Shown here in pieces: positions 35,265-39,513 of a stretch of 55,548 nt of DNA. The first letter of the stretch is position 1; each line of letters starts with the position of its first letter. The notes below the pieces were generated by a model. The model had not been told where the DNA came from. It was given only the letters and a program-made list of their open reading frames with translations, and did not search any database. The translations under genes and the position numbers were made by a program. The DNA is taken from UHGV virus genome UHGV-0016284, one strand, 5' to 3'. This stretch comes from a virus.

Positions 35265-35963
35265 ATGGAAGAAATGGTTTTATTGTCATCAATATGGCAT
35301 AAATTCGGAAGCGAGAAAGGTTATTCCCCAGCTTGCTGGTTGAATAGCAAAAGCGGTGAGGAATATCAAGATAAGTGTGAGTTGCGACGGATAGGGAAAA
35401 AAGGGAGCGCTGCTCGCGGGTATTTTGCTCCGCAATATGTGGCAAATGAGTATGGCGGCTGGTTGGCCAGGTCATTGACTAAAGTATCGTCACTTGTCTG
35501 CCTTACAGATATATGGAGGAATCACGATGCGCCCGAGTCGCGTCGTCCTTATCTTTGGTTGCAACGTCGTGGGTGGATATACAAAGACAGCACAAAAGTT
35601 ATAGGCAGTAAGACTTACGCAACAAAAGATGTGGCCGCTGCTTATGATGCGTGGTTGTGTGGTATTGAGAATAATAGACCTTACGGCAATGAGGCGTTTG
35701 CCAGAATTGAGCACGGCGCTTTATGCATGTATGAACAATTGGTTGGTGTTAAGCTAATTAGACAATATAAGGTATTGGAATACCGGATAGATGGTTATGA
35801 TCCGGTAAATAATATCGCCGTAGAAATTGACGAAGGGCATCATAAAAGCCAGGAGGCATCTGACGCTATACGTCAGCGCCGTATTGAAGAGGAGTTGGGA
35901 TGTTCATTTTTTCGGTGTCGCATATTTGACACGGAAACTGCGCAATATTGCAATGAAAAATAA
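35265..35963 (+). CDS. cargo protein with C-terminal Vsr/DUF559-like (PD-(D/E)xK-type) nuclease domain
   Basis: C-terminus YRIDGYDPVNNIAVEIDEGHH.......DAIRQRRIEEELGCSFFR matches the DUF559/Vsr-like pattern (..VDF..P...L.IE.DG..H......D..R...L...G..V.RF) by eye. N-terminal ~140 aa unassigned. Confidence 0.5.
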   Translation: MEEMVLLSSIWHKFGSEKGYSPACWLNSKSGEEYQDKCELRRIGKKGSAARGYFAPQYVANEYGGWLARSLTKVSSLVCLTDIWRNHDAPESRRPYLWLQRRGWIYKDSTKVIGSKTYATKDVAAAYDAWLCGIENNRPYGNEAFARIEHGALCMYEQLVGVKLIRQYKVLEYRIDGYDPVNNIAVEIDEGHHKSQEASDAIRQRRIEEELGCSFFRCRIFDTETAQYCNEK

Positions 35964-36045: not shown

Positions 36046-36246
36046 ATGTTCGACAGAATACGGGAGGCGTGTGCGTATGTGACTGGGGCCGTAACTGCTT
36101 TTTTCGGCGCGATAACCATCAATGACGTCGCTGTTTTCGTTGGTATCTTATCAACCGTAGGCACATTTGCCGTTAATTATTACTTCAAATCACAGGAGAA
36201 CAAGCGGGCGCAAGAGGAACACGACGCGCGAATGGGGAATAAGTAA
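36046..36246 (+). CDS. holin (small two-TM type, pinholin-like)
   Basis: 66 aa, two hydrophobic segments, charged C-terminus (KSQENKRAQEEHDARMGNK); directly precedes the endolysin. Confidence 0.6.
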   Translation: MFDRIREACAYVTGAVTAFFGAITINDVAVFVGILSTVGTFAVNYYFKSQENKRAQEEHDARMGNK

Positions 36247-36738
36247 ATGATTAGCCAATCGCTGAAAAACAAGATTGTTGCGGCGGCGGCTGGTGGGGCG
36301 ATCGCTATTGCGGGGGCGATGATAAAAGATCTTGAAGGCGTTGAGTATAAGCCATACAGAGATGTCATCGGTGTTTACACGATATGTTATGGACACGTCG
36401 GAAAAGACATCATGCTTGGTAAGACTTACACGCAATCAGAATGCGATGCTTTGTTAAATAAAGATCTACACAAGACCGCAAAAGCGATTGACCCATATAT
36501 CAAAGTCGAAGTATCAGATTTTACCCGCGCTGCACTTTATTCCTTCGCCTATAACGTAGGCGCAACCAACTTCAAAACATCAACCTTATTAAAGCTACTC
36601 AATGACGGCAAGAAATCGGAAGCGTGCGCACAGCTTAAGCGCTGGGTATACGCTGGCGGTAAGAAGTGGCAAGGCCTGGTTAACCGCCGCGATGTTGAAT
36701 ATGCCGTTTGCGAATGGGGTGAGAAATGGACAAGGTGA
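36247..36738 (+). CDS. SAR endolysin (lysozyme, GH24 / T4-lysozyme-like)
   Basis: Catalytic E-x8-D-x5-T triad in [22 protein letters not shown]; N-terminal weakly hydrophobic Gly/Ala-rich signal-anchor-release segment ([17 protein letters not shown]). Confidence 0.8.
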
Positions 36739-37196
36739 AGACGTTAATCATCGCCGTTGTTGTTTGCATTATTGCCAGCCTTACCGCCGTAACGTGTTAT
36801 TACCAGGGTGAGGCAGCAAGGTTACAGGAAGAAGTCACGGTAACGAAAGGCGCACTGAAAACGGCAAGTAACACTATTCAGCAGATGAAGGAGCGAAACG
36901 CCGAACTGTCAAAACTTGATAAGAGGTATCACGATGAGATTAAAGCTATCAGATCTGACATTGCTGATCTGCGCACTGGTATTGACAATGGCACTATCAA
37001 GCTGCGCGTCAACGCCGTGCCAATGCGAACGGACAGTAATACCGGAGCCGCCAGCCGCATTGATGGAGCCTCCTGTAGACTCACTCCCGACGCTGAATCG
37101 GCTTATCTATCCCTCAGAGAACAACTAAAAACGAAAGACGCTCAGATCACTGGGTTACAGGACTACATAAAAACGCAGTGCTTACGCAAAGAATAA
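36726..37196 (+). CDS. Rz-like inner-membrane spanin
   Basis: N-terminal TM helix ([16 protein letters not shown]), coiled-coil periplasmic domain; overlaps the endolysin stop. Confidence 0.7.
36934..37128 (+). CDS. Rz1-like outer-membrane lipoprotein spanin, embedded in the +1 frame of Rz
   Basis: [26 protein letters not shown]: lipobox LSSC; Pro-rich mature peptide; fully nested inside the Rz gene. Confidence 0.6.
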   Translation: MRLKLSDLTLLICALVLTMALSSCASTPCQCERTVIPEPPAALMEPPVDSLPTLNRLIYPSENN

Positions 37197-37533
37197 CAGC
37201 GCGTGGACGTGTCGCCGTTTCCGCCAGCCAGCCATAACCGGGCCAATCCTTCCCGCGAGCGACGGCGGAAATTCAAAAACACGTAATACCGGATCAACAG
37301 TCCCATTAACAGGTCCGGCGCTACCTGGGTAGAAGAAAGCGCCATTTACTCACCTGCCATGCGTAGGACGAGCGCCCGGATCTGTTTATCAGAGATGTTA
37401 AGCAGGTCCAGTTTTATAAAATTCTGCAAACGGTACTCATGCAGTGCCGTTTTTAGTGTTTTATAGCTGTTTTCACTCCCTGCGGTGTCCAGTTTTGCGG
37501 GGGTTATACTTTTCAGGATAGAGGAATATTCTG

Positions 37534-38118
37534 ATGGCTAAGGCTAAAGGCATCAAGTTGCCTCAATTCAAAGTTCCGCTCTTTGAGCATACAATAGTTT
37601 TCTTCTGCCCGACCCGCGACATGTTTTATGAATTTTGCGAAAGGGCTGGAATACCAATTGAACCTGATTTCGAACTGGCAGGAGGGTTGACGCTTACTTG
37701 CACTGGTGAGAAAGGCGGTAACTTCTACGTGATCGCAGTATTCGATAATGAGCTTGGTACGCTGGTCCATGAAGCGGCGCATACGACATTCCACGTTCTA
37801 AGCGATGTAGGTGTCGTGGCAACCACTGATCCAACTCATCCGGCGAACGAGACTTATGCTTACATGGTAGGCCGCATCTTTGACGCATTCTTCCCAATCC
37901 TGGCTGAGTCAAACGAAGCACAGATTGCAGCTATGCAGGCCGCTGAAGTCGTAGAGAAGGCATTAGATCAGGCGGAAAAGGCGACCGATGCAGCAGAACA
38001 GGCAGTGGAACAGGTAGAGGAGCCGAAAGAAGAGAAAAAGCCAGTTAAGAAAGGCAAACGTAAGCCTAAAGCAAAAGAAGCGCTTGTACCGCGTGTTATG
38101 AGCTTTAAACGGGGGTGA
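37534..38118 (+). CDS. hypothetical protein with HExxH motif and Lys/Glu/Ala-rich C-terminal tail
   Basis: LVHEAAHTTFHVL (HEAAH...H) in a ~110-aa N-terminal domain; C-terminal low-complexity basic tail (EEPKEEKKPVKKGKRKPKAKE). Confidence 0.5.
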   Translation: MAKAKGIKLPQFKVPLFEHTIVFFCPTRDMFYEFCERAGIPIEPDFELAGGLTLTCTGEKGGNFYVIAVFDNELGTLVHEAAHTTFHVLSDVGVVATTDPTHPANETYAYMVGRIFDAFFPILAESNEAQIAAMQAAEVVEKALDQAEKATDAAEQAVEQVEEPKEEKKPVKKGKRKPKAKEALVPRVMSFKRG

Positions 38119-38120
38119 TT

Positions 38121-38189
38121 ATGGTTACTTTCCTGTTAGGTTTATTTATCGGAATGGCTGCGGCTGTAATATTGCTGGTTGGTGAATAA
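38121..38189 (+). CDS. minipeptide 1 of tandem array (22 aa, single TM helix)
   Basis: MVTFLLGLFIGMAAAVILLVGE; GGGGGTGA ribosome-binding site; starts 2 nt after the upstream stop. Confidence 0.4.
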   Translation: MVTFLLGLFIGMAAAVILLVGE

Positions 38190-38193
38190 TGTT

Positions 38194-38310
38194 ATGGATG
38201 ATTATATCATTGCCGGATTGATCGGCATTTCTGTATATCTGGTGGGTTTTATTGCAGTTGCACTAATAAACGCAAAGATCAAGCACTGGGGGGGGGGAGG
38301 GGCAAGATGA
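38194..38310 (+). CDS. minipeptide 2 of tandem array (38 aa); contains a G10 homopolymer
   Basis: MDDYIIAGLIGISVYLVGFIAVALINAKIKHWGGGGAR; GGTGA ribosome-binding site; the G10 tract at 38288-38297 encodes WGGGG. Confidence 0.4.
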   Translation: MDDYIIAGLIGISVYLVGFIAVALINAKIKHWGGGGAR

Positions 38311-38381
38311 TTGACCCGCTCATTATCCTTTCTGCCTGCGTCGCTGTATGGCTGGCTATCATGATATTCATTGAAAGCTAA
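38307..38381 (+). CDS. minipeptide 3 of tandem array (24 aa)
   Basis: MIDPLIILSACVAVWLAIMIFIES; ATGA overlap with peptide 2; GGAGGGG ribosome-binding site. Confidence 0.4.
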   Translation: MIDPLIILSACVAVWLAIMIFIES

Positions 38382-38392
38382 AGGTTCTCATC

Positions 38393-38467
38393 ATGAATAT
38401 TTACGATCTAATCTGGTGGTCGTTGGTCGCCGTCATTATCTATTTCTGGTGGAAGAATGTTGTATAG
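38393..38467 (+). CDS. minipeptide 4 of tandem array (24 aa)
   Basis: MNIYDLIWWSLVAVIIYFWWKNVV. Confidence 0.35.
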   Translation: MNIYDLIWWSLVAVIIYFWWKNVV

Positions 38468-38475
38468 GTGAAAGC

Positions 38476-38556
38476 ATGAACGCATACGAAATGCTATTGC
38501 TGGTGGCTGTTATTACAGTTATTGCCGTTGATTTCTATAGAGGGTTAAAAAGATGA
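38476..38556 (+). CDS. minipeptide 5 of tandem array (26 aa)
   Basis: MNAYEMLLLVAVITVIAVDFYRGLKR; AGGTGA ribosome-binding site. The track ORF 38371..38556 is a probable over-extension from a non-ATG start. Confidence 0.4.
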   Translation: MNAYEMLLLVAVITVIAVDFYRGLKR

Positions 38557-38639
38557 GAGAAGCAGACTTCTTTTGCATAATTATAGTGATCGTCATCGTT
38601 GCGGTGCTTTTAAGCGTTAACGGAATCGCAGGGGGTTGA
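38553..38639 (+). CDS. minipeptide 6 of tandem array (28 aa)
   Basis: MREADFFCIIIVIVIVAVLLSVNGIAGG; ATGA overlap with peptide 5. Confidence 0.4.
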   Translation: MREADFFCIIIVIVIVAVLLSVNGIAGG

Positions 38640-38641
38640 AA

Positions 38642-38710
38642 ATGAAATGGCTTGATTTCTTTTTCCTGATTGTCGCGATTGTTCTAACCATGACCGCGCT
38701 GACTCAATAG
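38642..38710 (+). CDS. minipeptide 7 of tandem array (22 aa)
   Basis: MKWLDFFFLIVAIVLTMTALTQ; GGGGG ribosome-binding site; starts 2 nt after the peptide 6 stop. Confidence 0.4.
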   Translation: MKWLDFFFLIVAIVLTMTALTQ

Positions 38711-38778
38711 GTTGTGGCTTGGACGCGCATTTTATGCGCTTCCTAAATTCAGCAAGTCAAATAAAGTGGACGGCAACA

Positions 38779-38862
38779 ATGAAAGAGCTATTCGACTGGT
38801 TGGAAGTATTAACATACTGCGCAAGTTTTGTGGCTTGCGTATATATCATCAACAAATATTAA
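38779..38862 (+). CDS. minipeptide 8 (27 aa)
   Basis: MKELFDWLEVLTYCASFVACVYIINKY; same architecture as peptides 4-7 (M-x-x-acidic, then hydrophobic helix); weak ribosome-binding site. Confidence 0.3.
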   Translation: MKELFDWLEVLTYCASFVACVYIINKY

Positions 38863-39017
38863 TGGGTGACGCGATGAATAATGAAGAACTAAAAATTGCT
38901 GATGAAGTCAGAAAGGCACTTGACGCGGCAGAAAACAATAAAACTATCTATCTTTCCGAGCGGGAAGTAGAAAAGATGATGGATGAATTTAAATTAAAAT
39001 TTGAAAAAGATAATTGA
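38862..39017 (+). CDS. small acidic helical protein (51 aa)
   Basis: MGDAMNNEELKIADEVRKALDAAENNKTIYLSEREVEKMMDEFKLKFEKDN; start overlaps the peptide 8 stop; lies just before terminase. Confidence 0.35.
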   Translation: MGDAMNNEELKIADEVRKALDAAENNKTIYLSEREVEKMMDEFKLKFEKDN

Positions 39018-39027
39018 GAGGTGAATT

Positions 39028-39513
39028 ATGGCCCGCACTAAAAAGGCAAAGGCTGACGATAAAAAGCCAGCGGCTAAAAAGGTGGGCCGTCCGCATGGTT
39101 ATACCGAAGAAAAGGCATTAGAGATCTGTGAGCTGGTGGCGGACGGTCAGAGTATTAACAAGATTTCGAAGATGCCTGATATGCCTGCGCGTTCAACAAT
39201 CCTTAAATGGTTCAGAGACGTGCCGGAATTCTCGGACATGTACATGCGCGCGAAGGAAATCGGCTTCGAGGTATTAGCTGATGAGATCATCGATATAGCC
39301 GATGCGGCGGAGAATATCGATAAAGACGAATGCCGCCGCCATCAACTGATGATTGAAACCCGTAAATGGCTATTGGCAAAACTGCAACCGCGTAAGTATG
39401 GTGAACGCGTTACACAGGAGATCGTCGGCAACAGGGAAGAAGCGCCCGTACAGGTAGAAGTCACAAAAGAAGAGATCGCCCGCATCGTTCAGGAAGTAGA
39501 AGATGAGGTGTGA
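39028..39513 (+). CDS. terminase small subunit
   Basis: GRPHGYTEEKALEICELVADGQSINKISKMPDMPARSTILKWFRDVPEFSDMYMRAKEIGFEVLADEIIDIADAA matches the common phage small-terminase HTH family; directly precedes the large subunit. Confidence 0.8.
   Translation: MARTKKAKADDKKPAAKKVGRPHGYTEEKALEICELVADGQSINKISKMPDMPARSTILKWFRDVPEFSDMYMRAKEIGFEVLADEIIDIADAAENIDKDECRRHQLMIETRKWLLAKLQPRKYGERVTQEIVGNREEAPVQVEVTKEEIARIVQEVEDEV

What the first reader, a model, noticed from the sequence alone, without database searches (positions are those of the whole stretch)
37346..38118. HExxH-motif protein with basic low-complexity tail, preceded by a start-less gene remnant
Between the lysis cassette and the minipeptide array lies a 194-aa protein with HEAAHTTFH in its N-terminal domain and a Lys/Glu/Ala-rich tail. 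This looks like a small zinc-dependent hydrolase fused to a nucleic-acid- or membrane-binding tail, but the spacing does not fit a classical metzincin. Just upstream on the minus strand (about 37346-37540) there is a protein-like open frame (...LKTALHEYRLQNFIKLDLLNISDKQIRALVLRMAGE) without a start codon, consistent with a decayed gene, so this junction appears to be a site of gene turnover.
Basis: partly seen in the sequence, partly recalled or inferred. Interest (0 to 1): 0.45.

Follow-up and report, generated by a model that had tools for sequence, protein, structure and literature searches.

The report
Small phage zinc-peptidase; 'remnant' is regulatory
A conserved late gene of an mEp021-like coliphage encodes a small zinc-peptidase-like protein with a charged tail, and the 'dead gene' in front of it is only a chance open frame lying across a conserved hairpin-containing leader that precedes the DNA-packaging genes of several enterobacterial phages.

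Summary
The 194-aa ORF (37534-38118, +) is real. It is the homologue of mEp021 gp49 and belongs to phrog_1365 (function unknown). It evolves under strong purifying selection (dN/dS 0.06 in residues 1-125, about 0.2 in the tail).

The start-less minus-strand frame is not a decayed gene. It has no homologue outside this locus, carries stops in 3 of 10 relatives, and loses a 58-nt indel in others. Open stretches of 63 codons are common (256 in the window, about 193 in shuffles).

It overlies a conserved non-coding leader: a 19-bp hairpin with compensatory changes, a second hairpin and a Shine-Dalgarno hairpin. This leader lies at fixed spacing before the first packaging-module gene in Escherichia, Klebsiella, Raoultella and Providencia phages. 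That gene is this zincin, PF18894, an HslV-like peptidase or TerS.

Verdict: an ordinary new member of a known kind, with a modestly interesting cis-element.

The parts
37534..38118 (+). CDS of 194 aa, homologue of mEp021 gp49 and member of phrog_1365. A small zincin-like domain plus a charged tail.
   Evidence: ORF list. mEp021_49 is annotated at the same place. phrog_1365, E 1.7e-28. 122 homologues. dN/dS 0.06-0.21.
37534..37908 (+). N-terminal domain (residues 1-125), predicted zincin-like fold: strands 11-13, 21-25, 51-57 and 63-69; helices 28-38, 74-91 and 104-129.
   Evidence: AF2 model built on a 64-sequence alignment, pLDDT 93.8, pTM 0.87. 228 family representatives, mostly about 120 aa.
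37768..37782 (+). HEAAH (H79 E80 A81 A82 H83): two predicted zinc ligands and the catalytic base.
   Evidence: H79, E80 and H83 are invariant in 64 diverse family members. They lie on helix 74-91 of the model.
37849..37851 (+). E106 (in the motif NETYAY): predicted third zinc ligand, 22 residues after H83.
   Evidence: Invariant in 64 members, and Y110 is at least 90% conserved. It lies at the start of helix 104-129.
37906..38115 (+). Lineage-specific tail (residues 125-194): an acidic Ala/Glu/Gln-rich helix (125-165, net -8, with a 14-residue indel) followed by a Lys-rich end, KKPVKKGKRKPKAKEALVPRVMSFKRG (net +9).
   Evidence: Composition. Helix to about residue 162, then pLDDT below 50. Conservation and indels. 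Absent from the distant relatives of about 120 aa.
37346..37540 (-). A chance open frame, not a gene.
   Evidence: only a TTG start, 27 aa. Stops and a deletion in relatives. No outside homologue. Stop-free in 22 of 44 element copies. Chance expectation.
37415..37465 (+). Hairpin 1 of the conserved leader: 19 base pairs with two small internal loops, flanked by TTATAAA and TTTTATA. Its inner stem, 37428-37452 followed by TTAGTGTTTT, scores as an intrinsic terminator.
   Evidence: Annotated TERM_6 in mEp021. Terminator scan. RNAalifold on 44 sequences: 98.9% of cells paired, 5 pairs with compensatory changes, 0 of 500 shuffles reach the score.
37477..37503 (+). Hairpin 2 of the leader (CTCCCTGCG...loop...GCGGGGG). 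The position is conserved, but the stem sequence differs completely between phage groups.
   Evidence: Per-sequence RNAfold on the ungapped alignment A6. Alignment.
37513..37536 (+). Shine-Dalgarno hairpin: stem UCAGGAUA / UAUUCUGA with GAGGAA in the loop. The 3' arm ends at the A of the start codon. The family consensus is CAGAGGAWTRTTCTG followed by ATG.
   Evidence: Helix 2 is 95% paired.
37180..37413 (.). Highly conserved non-coding block between the Rz stop and hairpin 1. It contains the 58-nt indel segment (about 37349-37407). Function unknown.
   Evidence: Mean pairwise divergence is 2-6% here, against 11-20% in flanking coding DNA. Indels are not multiples of 3. No excess RNA stability on either strand, z about -0.1.
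37163..37345 (-). 60-aa ATG ORF abutting the 'remnant' (TAA then ATG). Probably not a gene.
   Evidence: Frames differ between relatives: MALSSTQVAPTC* in MagusPhagus and LSU61, frame-switched in mEp554. Only 7 database clusters, all from this E. coli locus, with 1-7 members each. Called by one annotation only, mEp013_65.
38121..38189 (+). First hydrophobic mini-ORF (MVTFLLGLFIGMAAAVILLVGE). Its ATG lies 2 nt after the gp49 stop, and its ribosome-binding site lies inside the last gp49 codons.
   Evidence: Sequence. The junction is conserved as CG(G/A)GG(N)TGATTATG in relatives.

Best explanation
The 194-aa ORF is a functional late gene of an mEp021-like (mEpimmI) temperate coliphage. It encodes a small zinc metallopeptidase of the gluzincin type.

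Inferred mechanism:
- H79 and H83, on helix 74-91, and E106, on helix 104-129, hold one zinc ion.
- E80 activates the water molecule.
- Strand 63-69, at the edge of the sheet, lines the substrate groove.
- Y110 may help stabilise the transition state.

The catalytic module is a stand-alone phage domain of about 120 aa. In this lineage it carries an added acidic helix and a Lys-rich end. I take the Lys-rich end to be a tether to a polyanionic surface: DNA in the packaging complex, or the inner face of the membrane beside the co-translated hydrophobic mini-peptides.

The gene is the first cistron behind a conserved structured leader that opens the DNA-packaging module. It is therefore made together with terminase late in infection. 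It is an accessory gene, not a core packaging gene, because other phages with the same leader go straight to terS. The substrate is unknown.

The upstream 'remnant' is not a gene. It is a chance open frame on the antisense strand of that leader. The leader's hairpin 1 most likely acts as an intra-operon terminator or processing site that insulates the packaging genes from non-antiterminated transcription.

Shown: the gene is real and under constraint, the motif is invariant, the model has this layout, the hairpin covaries, and the synteny holds. Inferred: zinc binding, proteolysis, the tail's target and the leader's function.
For: Gene identity and constraint:
- mEp021_49 and its homologues sit at the same place in 7 phages and 35 of 5,426 complete E. 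coli genomes.
- dN/dS is 0.06, 0.20 and 0.21 for the domain, linker and tail, with pS about 0.37.

Family and signature:
- A profile search finds 228 representatives, mostly about 120 aa.
- The only invariant residues in 64 diverse members are G51, H79, E80, H83 and E106. Y110 is at least 90% conserved.
- This matches the definition of zincin-like metallopeptidases, HExxH on one helix and Glu on the next (PMC5512222).

Structure:
- The AF2 model has pLDDT 93.8 and the expected sheet plus two C-terminal helices.
- 27 BFVD phage proteins match at E <= 1e-3. Between E 3.6e-5 and 0.2, the named matches in this list are SprT-like, SprT or Metalloprotease, except for three nucleotidyltransferase-type names near E 0.05-0.09.
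- 9 of 64 relatives hit Pfam SprT-like weakly.
- One 60%-identical relative is named 'PolyVal Metallopeptidase superfamily domain' by its source.

Synteny:
- P0130 lies between a Terminase_2 terS and the next large gene. P0142 and P0145 lie just upstream of SU10-type portal genes.
- The same leader precedes PF18894 PhageMetallopep, an HslV-family peptidase (phrog_1040) or terS in other phages.

Leader and 'remnant'.

Literature: intra-late-operon terminators of unknown role are described in P22-like phages (PMC8022706).
Against: No curated model (Pfam, NCBIfam, PADLOC) matches the window protein. No solved structure is found by sequence.

The protein was not labelled a virion protein in the mEp021 record, and the paper gives it no function.

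The tail's role is pure inference. Its last residues are also constrained by the ribosome-binding site of the next ORF. In mEp013-type phages the end of the tail is replaced.

The Klebsiella copies of hairpin 1 lack a U-tract and are not flagged as terminators. Termination therefore cannot be the whole story for the leader.
Confidence: 0.65

Rival explanations
1. The peptidase works at the inner membrane. The Lys-rich end sits at the cytoplasmic face beside the translationally coupled hydrophobic mini-peptides. The enzyme would cleave a membrane-associated target, for example a lysis-timing, exclusion or host envelope protein, rather than acting on DNA-bound or packaging proteins.
For: The tail and the mini-peptide array are both specific to this E. 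coli lineage. The next ORF, a single predicted transmembrane helix, starts 2 nt after the stop in all relatives. A one-G gain in the G5 run fuses the peptidase to that helix in one assembly (P0009), which gives a positive-inside topology. The gene follows the lysis cassette. The tail hits a holin PHROG weakly, E 0.0097.
Against: Fusions are rare: 2 of 120 clusters, each with 1 member. One of them (P0010) reads into a non-membrane frame, so they may be errors. The G-run is absent in many relatives. Distant relatives sit by terminase or portal genes without mini-peptides. There is no transmembrane segment or amphipathic helix in the protein itself.
Confidence: 0.2
2. The protein is a counter-defence protease. 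It is made with terminase and portal to destroy host immune proteins that sense those late proteins. This would explain why three unrelated peptidase families occupy the same slot.
For: The slot behind the same leader holds this zincin, PF18894 or an HslV-family peptidase, or nothing. Hence the gene is accessory and proteolysis is the shared feature. Zincin peptidases are the commonest domain of phage and plasmid conflict proteins (PMC5512222).
Against: There is no direct evidence and no PADLOC hit. No defence or anti-defence neighbour was seen. The literature searches found nothing relevant. Many phages with the leader lack any peptidase.
Confidence: 0.12
3. The domain keeps a zincin-like shape but is not a peptidase. 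It could be a different metal-dependent hydrolase or a binding module.
Against: The only invariant residues of a family diverged to 23-39% identity among the distant ~120-aa members are exactly the catalytic set H-E-x-x-H...E, plus one Gly. Among structural neighbours below E 0.01, the only named ones are SprT-like proteins or metalloproteases.
Confidence: 0.08
4. The minus-strand frame (37346-37540), alone or with the adjacent 60-aa ORF (37163-37345), is a decayed or still-functional small gene on the opposite strand, like bor downstream of Rz in phage lambda.
For: The 63 codons look protein-like. A TAA-ATG junction with an AGGTGA ribosome-binding site precedes the 60-aa ORF. Variable sites show a mild third-position excess, 12:7:4, not significant at n=23. 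Indels in the left block partly compensate: +1/-1 in one lineage and +1/+2 in another. mEp013_65 is annotated there.
Against: No homologue exists outside the locus in 5.8 billion clusters or in 50,697 phage records. There are in-frame stops in 3 of 10 relatives and a 58-nt deletion in 8 of 14. The N- and C-terminal frames of the 60-aa ORF differ between relatives, and the ATG frame stops after 12 codons in MagusPhagus and LSU61. Substitutions follow the hairpin, with stems conserved or compensated and loops variable. The frame is open in only 22 of 44 element copies.
Confidence: 0.05

Closest known systems
Zincin-like metallopeptidases of phage and plasmid 'polyvalent' proteins (MPTase-PolyVal; Iyer et al. 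2017, PMC5512222)
   Same: An HExxH helix followed by a helix carrying the Glu ligand, behind a small beta-sheet. Encoded by phages. A 60%-identical relative (P0118) is given this name by its source.
   Different: This protein is stand-alone at 120-194 aa, not a domain of a giant multidomain protein. No Pfam match was obtained here at E <= 1. It is expressed from the late operon and shows no sign of being a virion-delivered early effector.
SprT-like family (PF10263; SprT, Spartan, Wss1 and the ArdC C-terminal domain)
   Same: A small zincin core. 9 of 64 relatives give weak Pfam hits (best E 0.009). Several BFVD structural neighbours are named SprT-like. A basic tail next to a zincin recalls the DNA-dependent Spartan-type proteases (from my own knowledge).
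   Different: All hits are below Pfam's threshold, and the window protein itself gives none. No SprT zinc-ribbon is present. DNA dependence was not tested.
Classical gluzincins (thermolysin M4, M1, M3 oligopeptidases) and minigluzincins
   Different: The whole domain is about 125 residues. The spacing is 22 residues. There is no sequence-level relationship to any solved structure.
PhageMetallopep (PF18894), the 211-aa 'putative metallopeptidase' of Klebsiella prophages
   Same: It occupies the same slot: 69 nt downstream of the same conserved leader, and immediately upstream of terS and terL. It also has an HExxH motif (HELYH).
   Different: It is not demonstrably homologous. BLASTP gives E 0.09 and hhalign gives 1.3% probability, with only the HExxH helix aligned. 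It has no charged tail.
Intra-operon terminators and boundary sequences of lambdoid late operons
   Same: A hairpin inside the late operon, between the lysis and virion-assembly modules, that Q-modified polymerase would read through. Such terminators are described, with unknown roles, in P22-like phages (PMC8022706). It is annotated as a terminator in mEp021.
   Different: The hairpin is about 19-22 bp long with sequence-invariant flanks. It is shared by phages with different terS families, lies at fixed spacing from the start codon, and is accompanied by two further hairpins. The Klebsiella copies lack a U-tract. There is no Rfam family.

Membership tests
Zincin-like (gluzincin-type) metallopeptidase | HExxH motif located on an alpha-helix | tested here: met
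   H79, E80 and H83 are invariant in 64 diverse relatives. They lie on helix 74-91 of a model with pLDDT 94.
Zincin-like (gluzincin-type) metallopeptidase | Third zinc ligand is a Glu on the next helix, about 18-25 residues downstream | tested here: met
   E106 is invariant, 22 residues after H83, in the motif NETYAY at the start of helix 104-129.
Zincin-like (gluzincin-type) metallopeptidase | Small mixed beta-sheet with an N-terminal helix preceding the active-site helix | tested here: met
   The model has strands 11-13, 21-25, 51-57 and 63-69 and helix 28-38. This is a prediction, not an experimental structure.
Zincin-like (gluzincin-type) metallopeptidase | Significant structural superposition on solved zincins | tested here: inconclusive
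Zincin-like (gluzincin-type) metallopeptidase | Binds zinc and hydrolyses peptide bonds | not testable with these tools
   This needs biochemistry.
Metzincin | Extended motif HExxHxxGxxH plus a Met-turn | tested here: not met
   The sequence is HEAAHTTFHVL: no Gly at +3 after the second His and no His at +6. H87 is not conserved in the family.
SprT-like (PF10263) | Match to the Pfam model above its gathering score | tested here: not met
   The window protein gives no hit at E <= 1. 9 of 64 relatives hit with best E 0.009, below threshold. Structural neighbours named SprT-like are only a lead.
MPTase-PolyVal (polyvalent-protein metallopeptidase) | Match to the family model and occurrence inside multidomain polyvalent proteins | tested here: not met
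   No Pfam hit. The protein is stand-alone. Only a third-party name on relative P0118 points there. Two giant proteins (P0148, P0167) matched only 15-22 residues of the profile's N-terminal region.
PhageMetallopep (PF18894) | Match to the Pfam model, or profile-profile homology | tested here: not met
   No Pfam hit. hhalign probability 1.3%.
phrog_1365 (phage proteins of unknown function) | Match to the PHROG profile | tested here: met
   E 1.7e-28 over residues 1-130. Distant relatives P0130 and P0145 hit the same PHROG.
Pseudogene / decayed gene (the minus-strand frame) | Recognisable homology to an intact gene elsewhere | tested here: not met
   tblastn against 50,697 phage records finds only the same intergenic element. 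The search of 5.8 billion protein clusters finds only 3 ORF calls, all on this locus.
Pseudogene / decayed gene (the minus-strand frame) | Neutral, unconstrained evolution of the DNA | tested here: not met
   The DNA is more conserved than neighbouring coding sequence and shows compensatory base-pair changes.
Rho-independent terminator (hairpin 1) | G+C-containing stem directly followed by a U-tract | tested here: inconclusive
   Met in the window and the E. coli group: a 10-pair stem followed by TTAGTGTTTT, annotated TERM_6 in mEp021. Not met in the Klebsiella copies.
Rho-independent terminator (hairpin 1) | Terminates transcription | not testable with these tools
   This needs 3'-end mapping or reporter assays.
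Known RNA family (Rfam 15) | Covariance-model match | tested here: not met
   No match at E <= 1 in 37000-39100 on either strand.

The most novel reading that the evidence does not exclude
The roughly 120-nt leader (hairpin 1, hairpin 2 and the Shine-Dalgarno hairpin, at fixed spacing) could be an undescribed cis-regulatory RNA. It would gate the DNA-packaging module of temperate Enterobacterales phages through processing, termination and/or translation control. The gene slot right behind it would be a dedicated 'late peptidase' slot, filled convergently by three unrelated peptidase families: this mini-zincin, PF18894 and an HslV-like peptidase. That would imply a still-unknown proteolytic step tied to the onset of packaging, for example removal of DNA-bound proteins or of host sensors of terminase and portal.
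Probability: 0.2. Interest if true: 0.6.

Novelty: new member of a known kind. Interest (0 to 1): 0.3.

Why it matters
The result gives a defensible annotation to a core 'hypothetical protein' of the mEpimmI coliphages, which are common in the human gut, and to phrog_1365. The annotation is a small gluzincin-type metallopeptidase with ligands H79, H83 and E106. It also removes a false pseudogene call.

Two testable leads follow:
- A conserved, covarying leader marks the start of the packaging module across phages with different terminases.
- The first gene behind it is repeatedly a peptidase of one family or another.

If that proteolysis has a defined target, it would expose an unrecognised late-infection step. 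If not, this is one more accessory phage protease.

Tried and rejected
- **Curated families.** Pfam, NCBIfam and PADLOC scans of the 194-aa protein gave nothing above noise. The SPICE, Alanine_zipper and YqzE hits come from the low-complexity tail.
- **Solved structures by sequence.** Searches with the protein, the 64-sequence profile and three distant relatives gave only chance hits.
- **Unavailable searches.** The afdb50 fold library was not available. The search for related loci on the diverse alignment failed because it has no conserved 7-10-column stretch.
- **Link to PF18894.** hhalign of the family against PF18894 proteins gave 1.3% probability, so homology is rejected.
- **Programmed -1 frameshift.** I considered a frameshift at the G5 run that would join the peptidase to the next transmembrane peptide. 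I rejected it because many relatives lack the run, and the two fused forms are single G gain or loss variants.
- **Sigma-70 promoter in the leader.** None was found in the window. An antisense TTAACG-17-TATAAT in one Klebsiella copy is not conserved.
- **Terminase recognition (pac/cos) site.** This is unlikely for the leader, because it precedes four different terS families.
- **Stable RNA in the left block.** The conserved block 37190-37350 shows no excess folding energy on either strand.
- **Rfam.** No match.
- **Literature.** Searches for functions of phrog_1365, PF18894 or phage SprT-like proteins near terminase found nothing relevant. The mEpimmI paper does not discuss gp49.
Full report
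**Setting.** The window is an mEp021-like temperate coliphage or prophage of the mEpimmI group (PMC11893012). Bases 36700-38400 match seven phage records at 88-94% identity: mEp021, mEp515, mEp010, mEp013, mEp044, mEp554 and MagusPhagus. The local gene order is:
- holin (36046-36246)
- lysozyme (36247-36738)
- Rz (36726-37196, Pfam Phage_lysis)
- 337 nt without an annotated gene
- the 194-aa ORF (37534-38118)
- several tiny hydrophobic ORFs
- an Sf6-type small terminase (39028-39513)
- the large terminase

In mEp021 the ORF is gp49, 'hypothetical protein'. A terminator, TERM_6, is annotated in the gap.

**The observation.**
- The ORF has HEAAHTTFH at residues 79-87 and a 70-residue tail rich in Ala, Glu and Lys.
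- On the minus strand, 63 sense codons lie between stops at 37538-37540 and 37346-37348, with the quoted peptide. There is no ATG or GTG. A TTG at 37429 would give only 27 aa.
- The ORF is clearly non-random, as shown below.
- The open frame is not. The window has 256 stop-to-stop stretches of at least 63 codons, and shuffled sequence has about 193.

**The protein is a real, constrained gene.**
- The word-indexed search found 122 homologues, nearly all from E. coli prophages. The closest cluster alone has 556 members. Typical lengths are 180 and 194 aa, because of a 14-residue indel in the tail.
- Over 16 distinct relatives, pooled Nei-Gojobori estimates give dN/dS of 0.06 for residues 1-125, 0.20 for 126-165 and 0.21 for 166-194. 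Synonymous divergence is about 0.37.
- The region is present in 35 of 5,426 complete E. coli genomes.

**What the N-terminal domain is.**
- No curated Pfam, NCBIfam or PADLOC model matches. PHROGs places it in phrog_1365, function unknown (E 1.7e-28).
- An exhaustive profile search with residues 1-130 found 228 cluster representatives at E <= 1e-3. Almost all are stand-alone proteins of about 110-140 aa.
- In an alignment of 64 of them (23-65% identical to the window protein), the only invariant positions are G51, H79, E80, H83 and E106. P15, F70 and Y110 are at least 90% conserved.
- HExxH followed 22 residues later by Glu in the motif N-E-T/A-F/Y-x-Y is the gluzincin arrangement. It matches the published definition of zincin-like metallopeptidases: HExxH on one helix, Glu on the next, behind a small sheet (PMC5512222).
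- AlphaFold2 on this alignment gives a confident model (pLDDT 93.8, pTM 0.87). It has strands 11-13, 21-25, 51-57 and 63-69, helix 28-38, the HExxH helix 74-91 and the Glu helix 104-129.

**Structural matches are weak but point the same way.**
- Against predicted viral structures there are 27 matches at E <= 1e-3. All are small phage proteins. The first named matches are 'SprT-like family protein', 'SprT-like' and 'Metalloprotease' (E 3.6e-5 to 5.7e-3), with two more SprT names at weaker E; three nucleotidyltransferase-type names also appear near E 0.05-0.09.
- Nine of 64 relatives hit Pfam SprT-like weakly.
- One relative, 60% identical, carries the third-party name 'PolyVal Metallopeptidase superfamily domain'.
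- I therefore file the domain as a zincin-like, gluzincin-type metallopeptidase. It is not a member of SprT-like, MPTase-PolyVal, PF18894 or the metzincins, whose defining tests it failed.

**The tail.**
- In the full-length model the Glu helix continues to about residue 162. The last 33 residues are disordered.
- The tail splits into an acidic Ala/Glu/Gln-rich part (net -8) and a Lys-rich end, KKPVKKGKRKPKAKEALVPRVMSFKRG (net +9).
- It is specific to the E. coli lineage.
- In mEp013-type phages its end is replaced where an HNH endonuclease gene is inserted. A Lys-rich stretch remains there.
- The final codons double as the ribosome-binding site of the next ORF, a 22-aa hydrophobic peptide that starts 2 nt after the stop.
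- Two database variants, of 209 and 211 aa, come from a gain or loss of one G in the G5 run at the stop. The gain fuses the peptidase to that hydrophobic peptide. Many relatives lack the run, so I do not regard this as programmed.
- Whether the tail binds DNA, membrane or a partner protein cannot be decided here.

**Genomic company.**
- Distant members of the family also sit at the head of the packaging module. P0130 lies between a Terminase_2 small terminase and the next large gene, downstream of CHAP and holin genes. P0142 and P0145 lie shortly upstream of SU10-type portal genes. P0125 follows Bro-N, Rha and ParE genes at a contig end.
- This recurrent linkage, together with the late-operon position, is the only functional hint.

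**The 'remnant' is not a decayed gene.**
- The frame has no relative. tblastn against 50,697 phage records returns only the same intergenic DNA. The search of 5.8 billion clusters returns three ORF calls from this very locus, each created by a frameshift that borrows an ATG.
- In relatives the frame carries in-frame stops (mEp044, mEp013, strain GN05505). Its last third is removed by a 58-nt deletion in mEp044, MagusPhagus, mEp554, N25, LSU61 and others.
- The substitutions follow a hairpin, not a codon pattern. Two arms (AAACGGTAC / GTGCCGTTT) are conserved and the loop between them varies.
- The adjacent 60-aa ATG ORF (37163-37345) fares no better. Its reading frame differs among relatives. 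Only seven small clusters from this locus exist in the database.

**What lies under the frame.**
- The weak tblastn hits led to the intergenic DNA immediately upstream of a 211-aa 'putative metallopeptidase' in Klebsiella phages, and of the small terminase in a Providencia phage.
- A pattern built from the shared motif, TTATAAARTTCTRCAAAYG-N25-GTTTTATA, finds 56 IMG/VR contigs. It also finds Raoultella and Providencia genomes. There is a single copy in the window.
- Forty-four distinct copies align without a single gap over 147 nt.
- RNAalifold folds window positions 37415-37465 into a 19-pair hairpin. Of its cells, 98.9% are paired. Five pairs show compensatory double changes: GC/AU, UA/CG, GC/UG/CG, GC/AU and CG/UA. 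None of 500 shuffles reaches the covariation score, and slid controls pair at only 35-54%.
- One caveat applies. The outer stem was fixed by the search pattern, so only the inner pairs are informative.
- Downstream there is a second hairpin whose position is kept while its sequence differs entirely between groups. A short hairpin then presents or sequesters the Shine-Dalgarno sequence right before the ATG.
- Rfam has no such family.

**What follows the leader.** The first gene starts 68-69 nt after hairpin 1 in most copies and 80-105 nt after it in the Providencia-type and a few other copies. It is one of the following:

| First gene after the leader | Loci |
|---|---|
| This mini-zincin (E. 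coli group) | the window + 5 other loci |
| PF18894 PhageMetallopep | about 34 |
| Terminase_2 small terminase | about 15 |
| gp3-type small terminase | 2 |
| HslV-family peptidase (phrog_1040) | 1 |
| Coiled-coil protein | 1 |

PF18894 is not detectably homologous to the mini-zincin.

**How the leader probably works.**
- In the window the inner stem plus TTAGTGTTTT scores as an intrinsic terminator, as annotated in mEp021.
- Terminators inside lambdoid late operons are known. They are thought either to attenuate transcription or to stop transcription that did not start under Q antitermination (PMC8022706).
- That is my preferred reading. However, the Klebsiella copies lack the U-tract, and the stem is long enough to be a double-strand-specific processing site.
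- Recognition by terminase is unlikely, because four different small-terminase families follow the same element.

**An unexplained residue.**
- The 230 nt between the Rz stop and hairpin 1 are the most conserved stretch of the region. They diverge by 2-6%, against 11-20% in the flanking genes.
- They tolerate 1-2-nt indels and show no excess RNA stability.
- I have no explanation for this.

**Verdict.**
The tail's role is open. The 'decayed gene' is wrong.
- The protein is a new, uncharacterised member of a known kind: small phage zincin-like metallopeptidases.
- The conserved leader and the recurring peptidase slot are the only parts that might repay experiments.

Noticed in passing
window 37414-37536; also L010-L068, L081, L082: A conserved ungapped leader of about 120 nt: a 19-bp covarying hairpin, a second hairpin of variable sequence and a Shine-Dalgarno hairpin. 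It lies at fixed distance upstream of the first packaging-module gene in Escherichia, Klebsiella, Raoultella and Providencia phages. There is no Rfam family for it.
   Followed up: yes
window 37180-37413: This non-coding block is more conserved (2-6% divergence) than the neighbouring genes (11-20%). It tolerates 1-2-nt indels and a 58-nt indel (about 37349-37407). No RNA-fold signal, no promoter and no homologous protein were found. Its function is unknown.
   Followed up: partly
L010, L012 and others (Klebsiella phages); L026 2343-2912: The slot directly behind the same leader holds three unrelated peptidase types in different phages: the mini-zincin, PF18894 PhageMetallopep and an HslV-family peptidase (phrog_1040). 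In other phages it holds no peptidase at all.
   Followed up: partly
L010 1865-2500 (Klebsiella phage RAH1 ORF38): There is an annotation conflict. The protein matches Pfam PF18894 'putative phage metallopeptidase' (E 5e-44), but its PHROG (phrog_513, E 1e-100) is labelled 'transposase, integration and excision'.
   Followed up: no
window 38108-38123; L077 and L078 about 2030-2045: A G5 run sits at the gp49 stop codon. An assembly with G6 fuses gp49 to the downstream transmembrane mini-peptide (P0009). One with G4 reads into another frame (P0010). Other relatives have no run, so this is probably a mutation or a sequencing error rather than recoding.
   Followed up: yes
window 38121-38560: An array of five or so tiny hydrophobic ORFs (22-61 aa, each with one predicted transmembrane helix). 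They are tightly packed and translationally coupled. Their content varies between relatives, with different peptides following the same gp49 stop. A G8AG4 run lies at about 38289-38301.
   Followed up: no
L003 4354-4839 (mEp013): An HNH endonuclease gene (T7 gp2.8/gp7.7-like) is inserted right after the gp49 homologue and overlaps its end. It replaces the usual C-terminal 20 residues of the tail. This variant tail is shared by a cluster of 108 sequences (P0113).
   Followed up: partly
L079 110-712, L080 110-712 (E. coli MLI107, STEC306-308): Some prophages carry an extra 200-aa hypothetical gene between Rz and the conserved non-coding block. The block therefore travels with gp49, not with Rz.
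   Followed up: no
window 35265-35963: A 232-aa protein upstream of the holin combines a weak KilA-N N-terminal match with a DUF559 / Vsr-like endonuclease C-terminal match (E 4e-5). This is an unusual fusion.
   Followed up: no
window 36880-36980 and 37080-37130: Two pockets of very low divergence (0.6-4.5%) lie inside Rz. They coincide with the start and end of an embedded +1-frame ORF (36916-37128), which is presumably Rz1. Double coding would explain the conservation.
   Followed up: no
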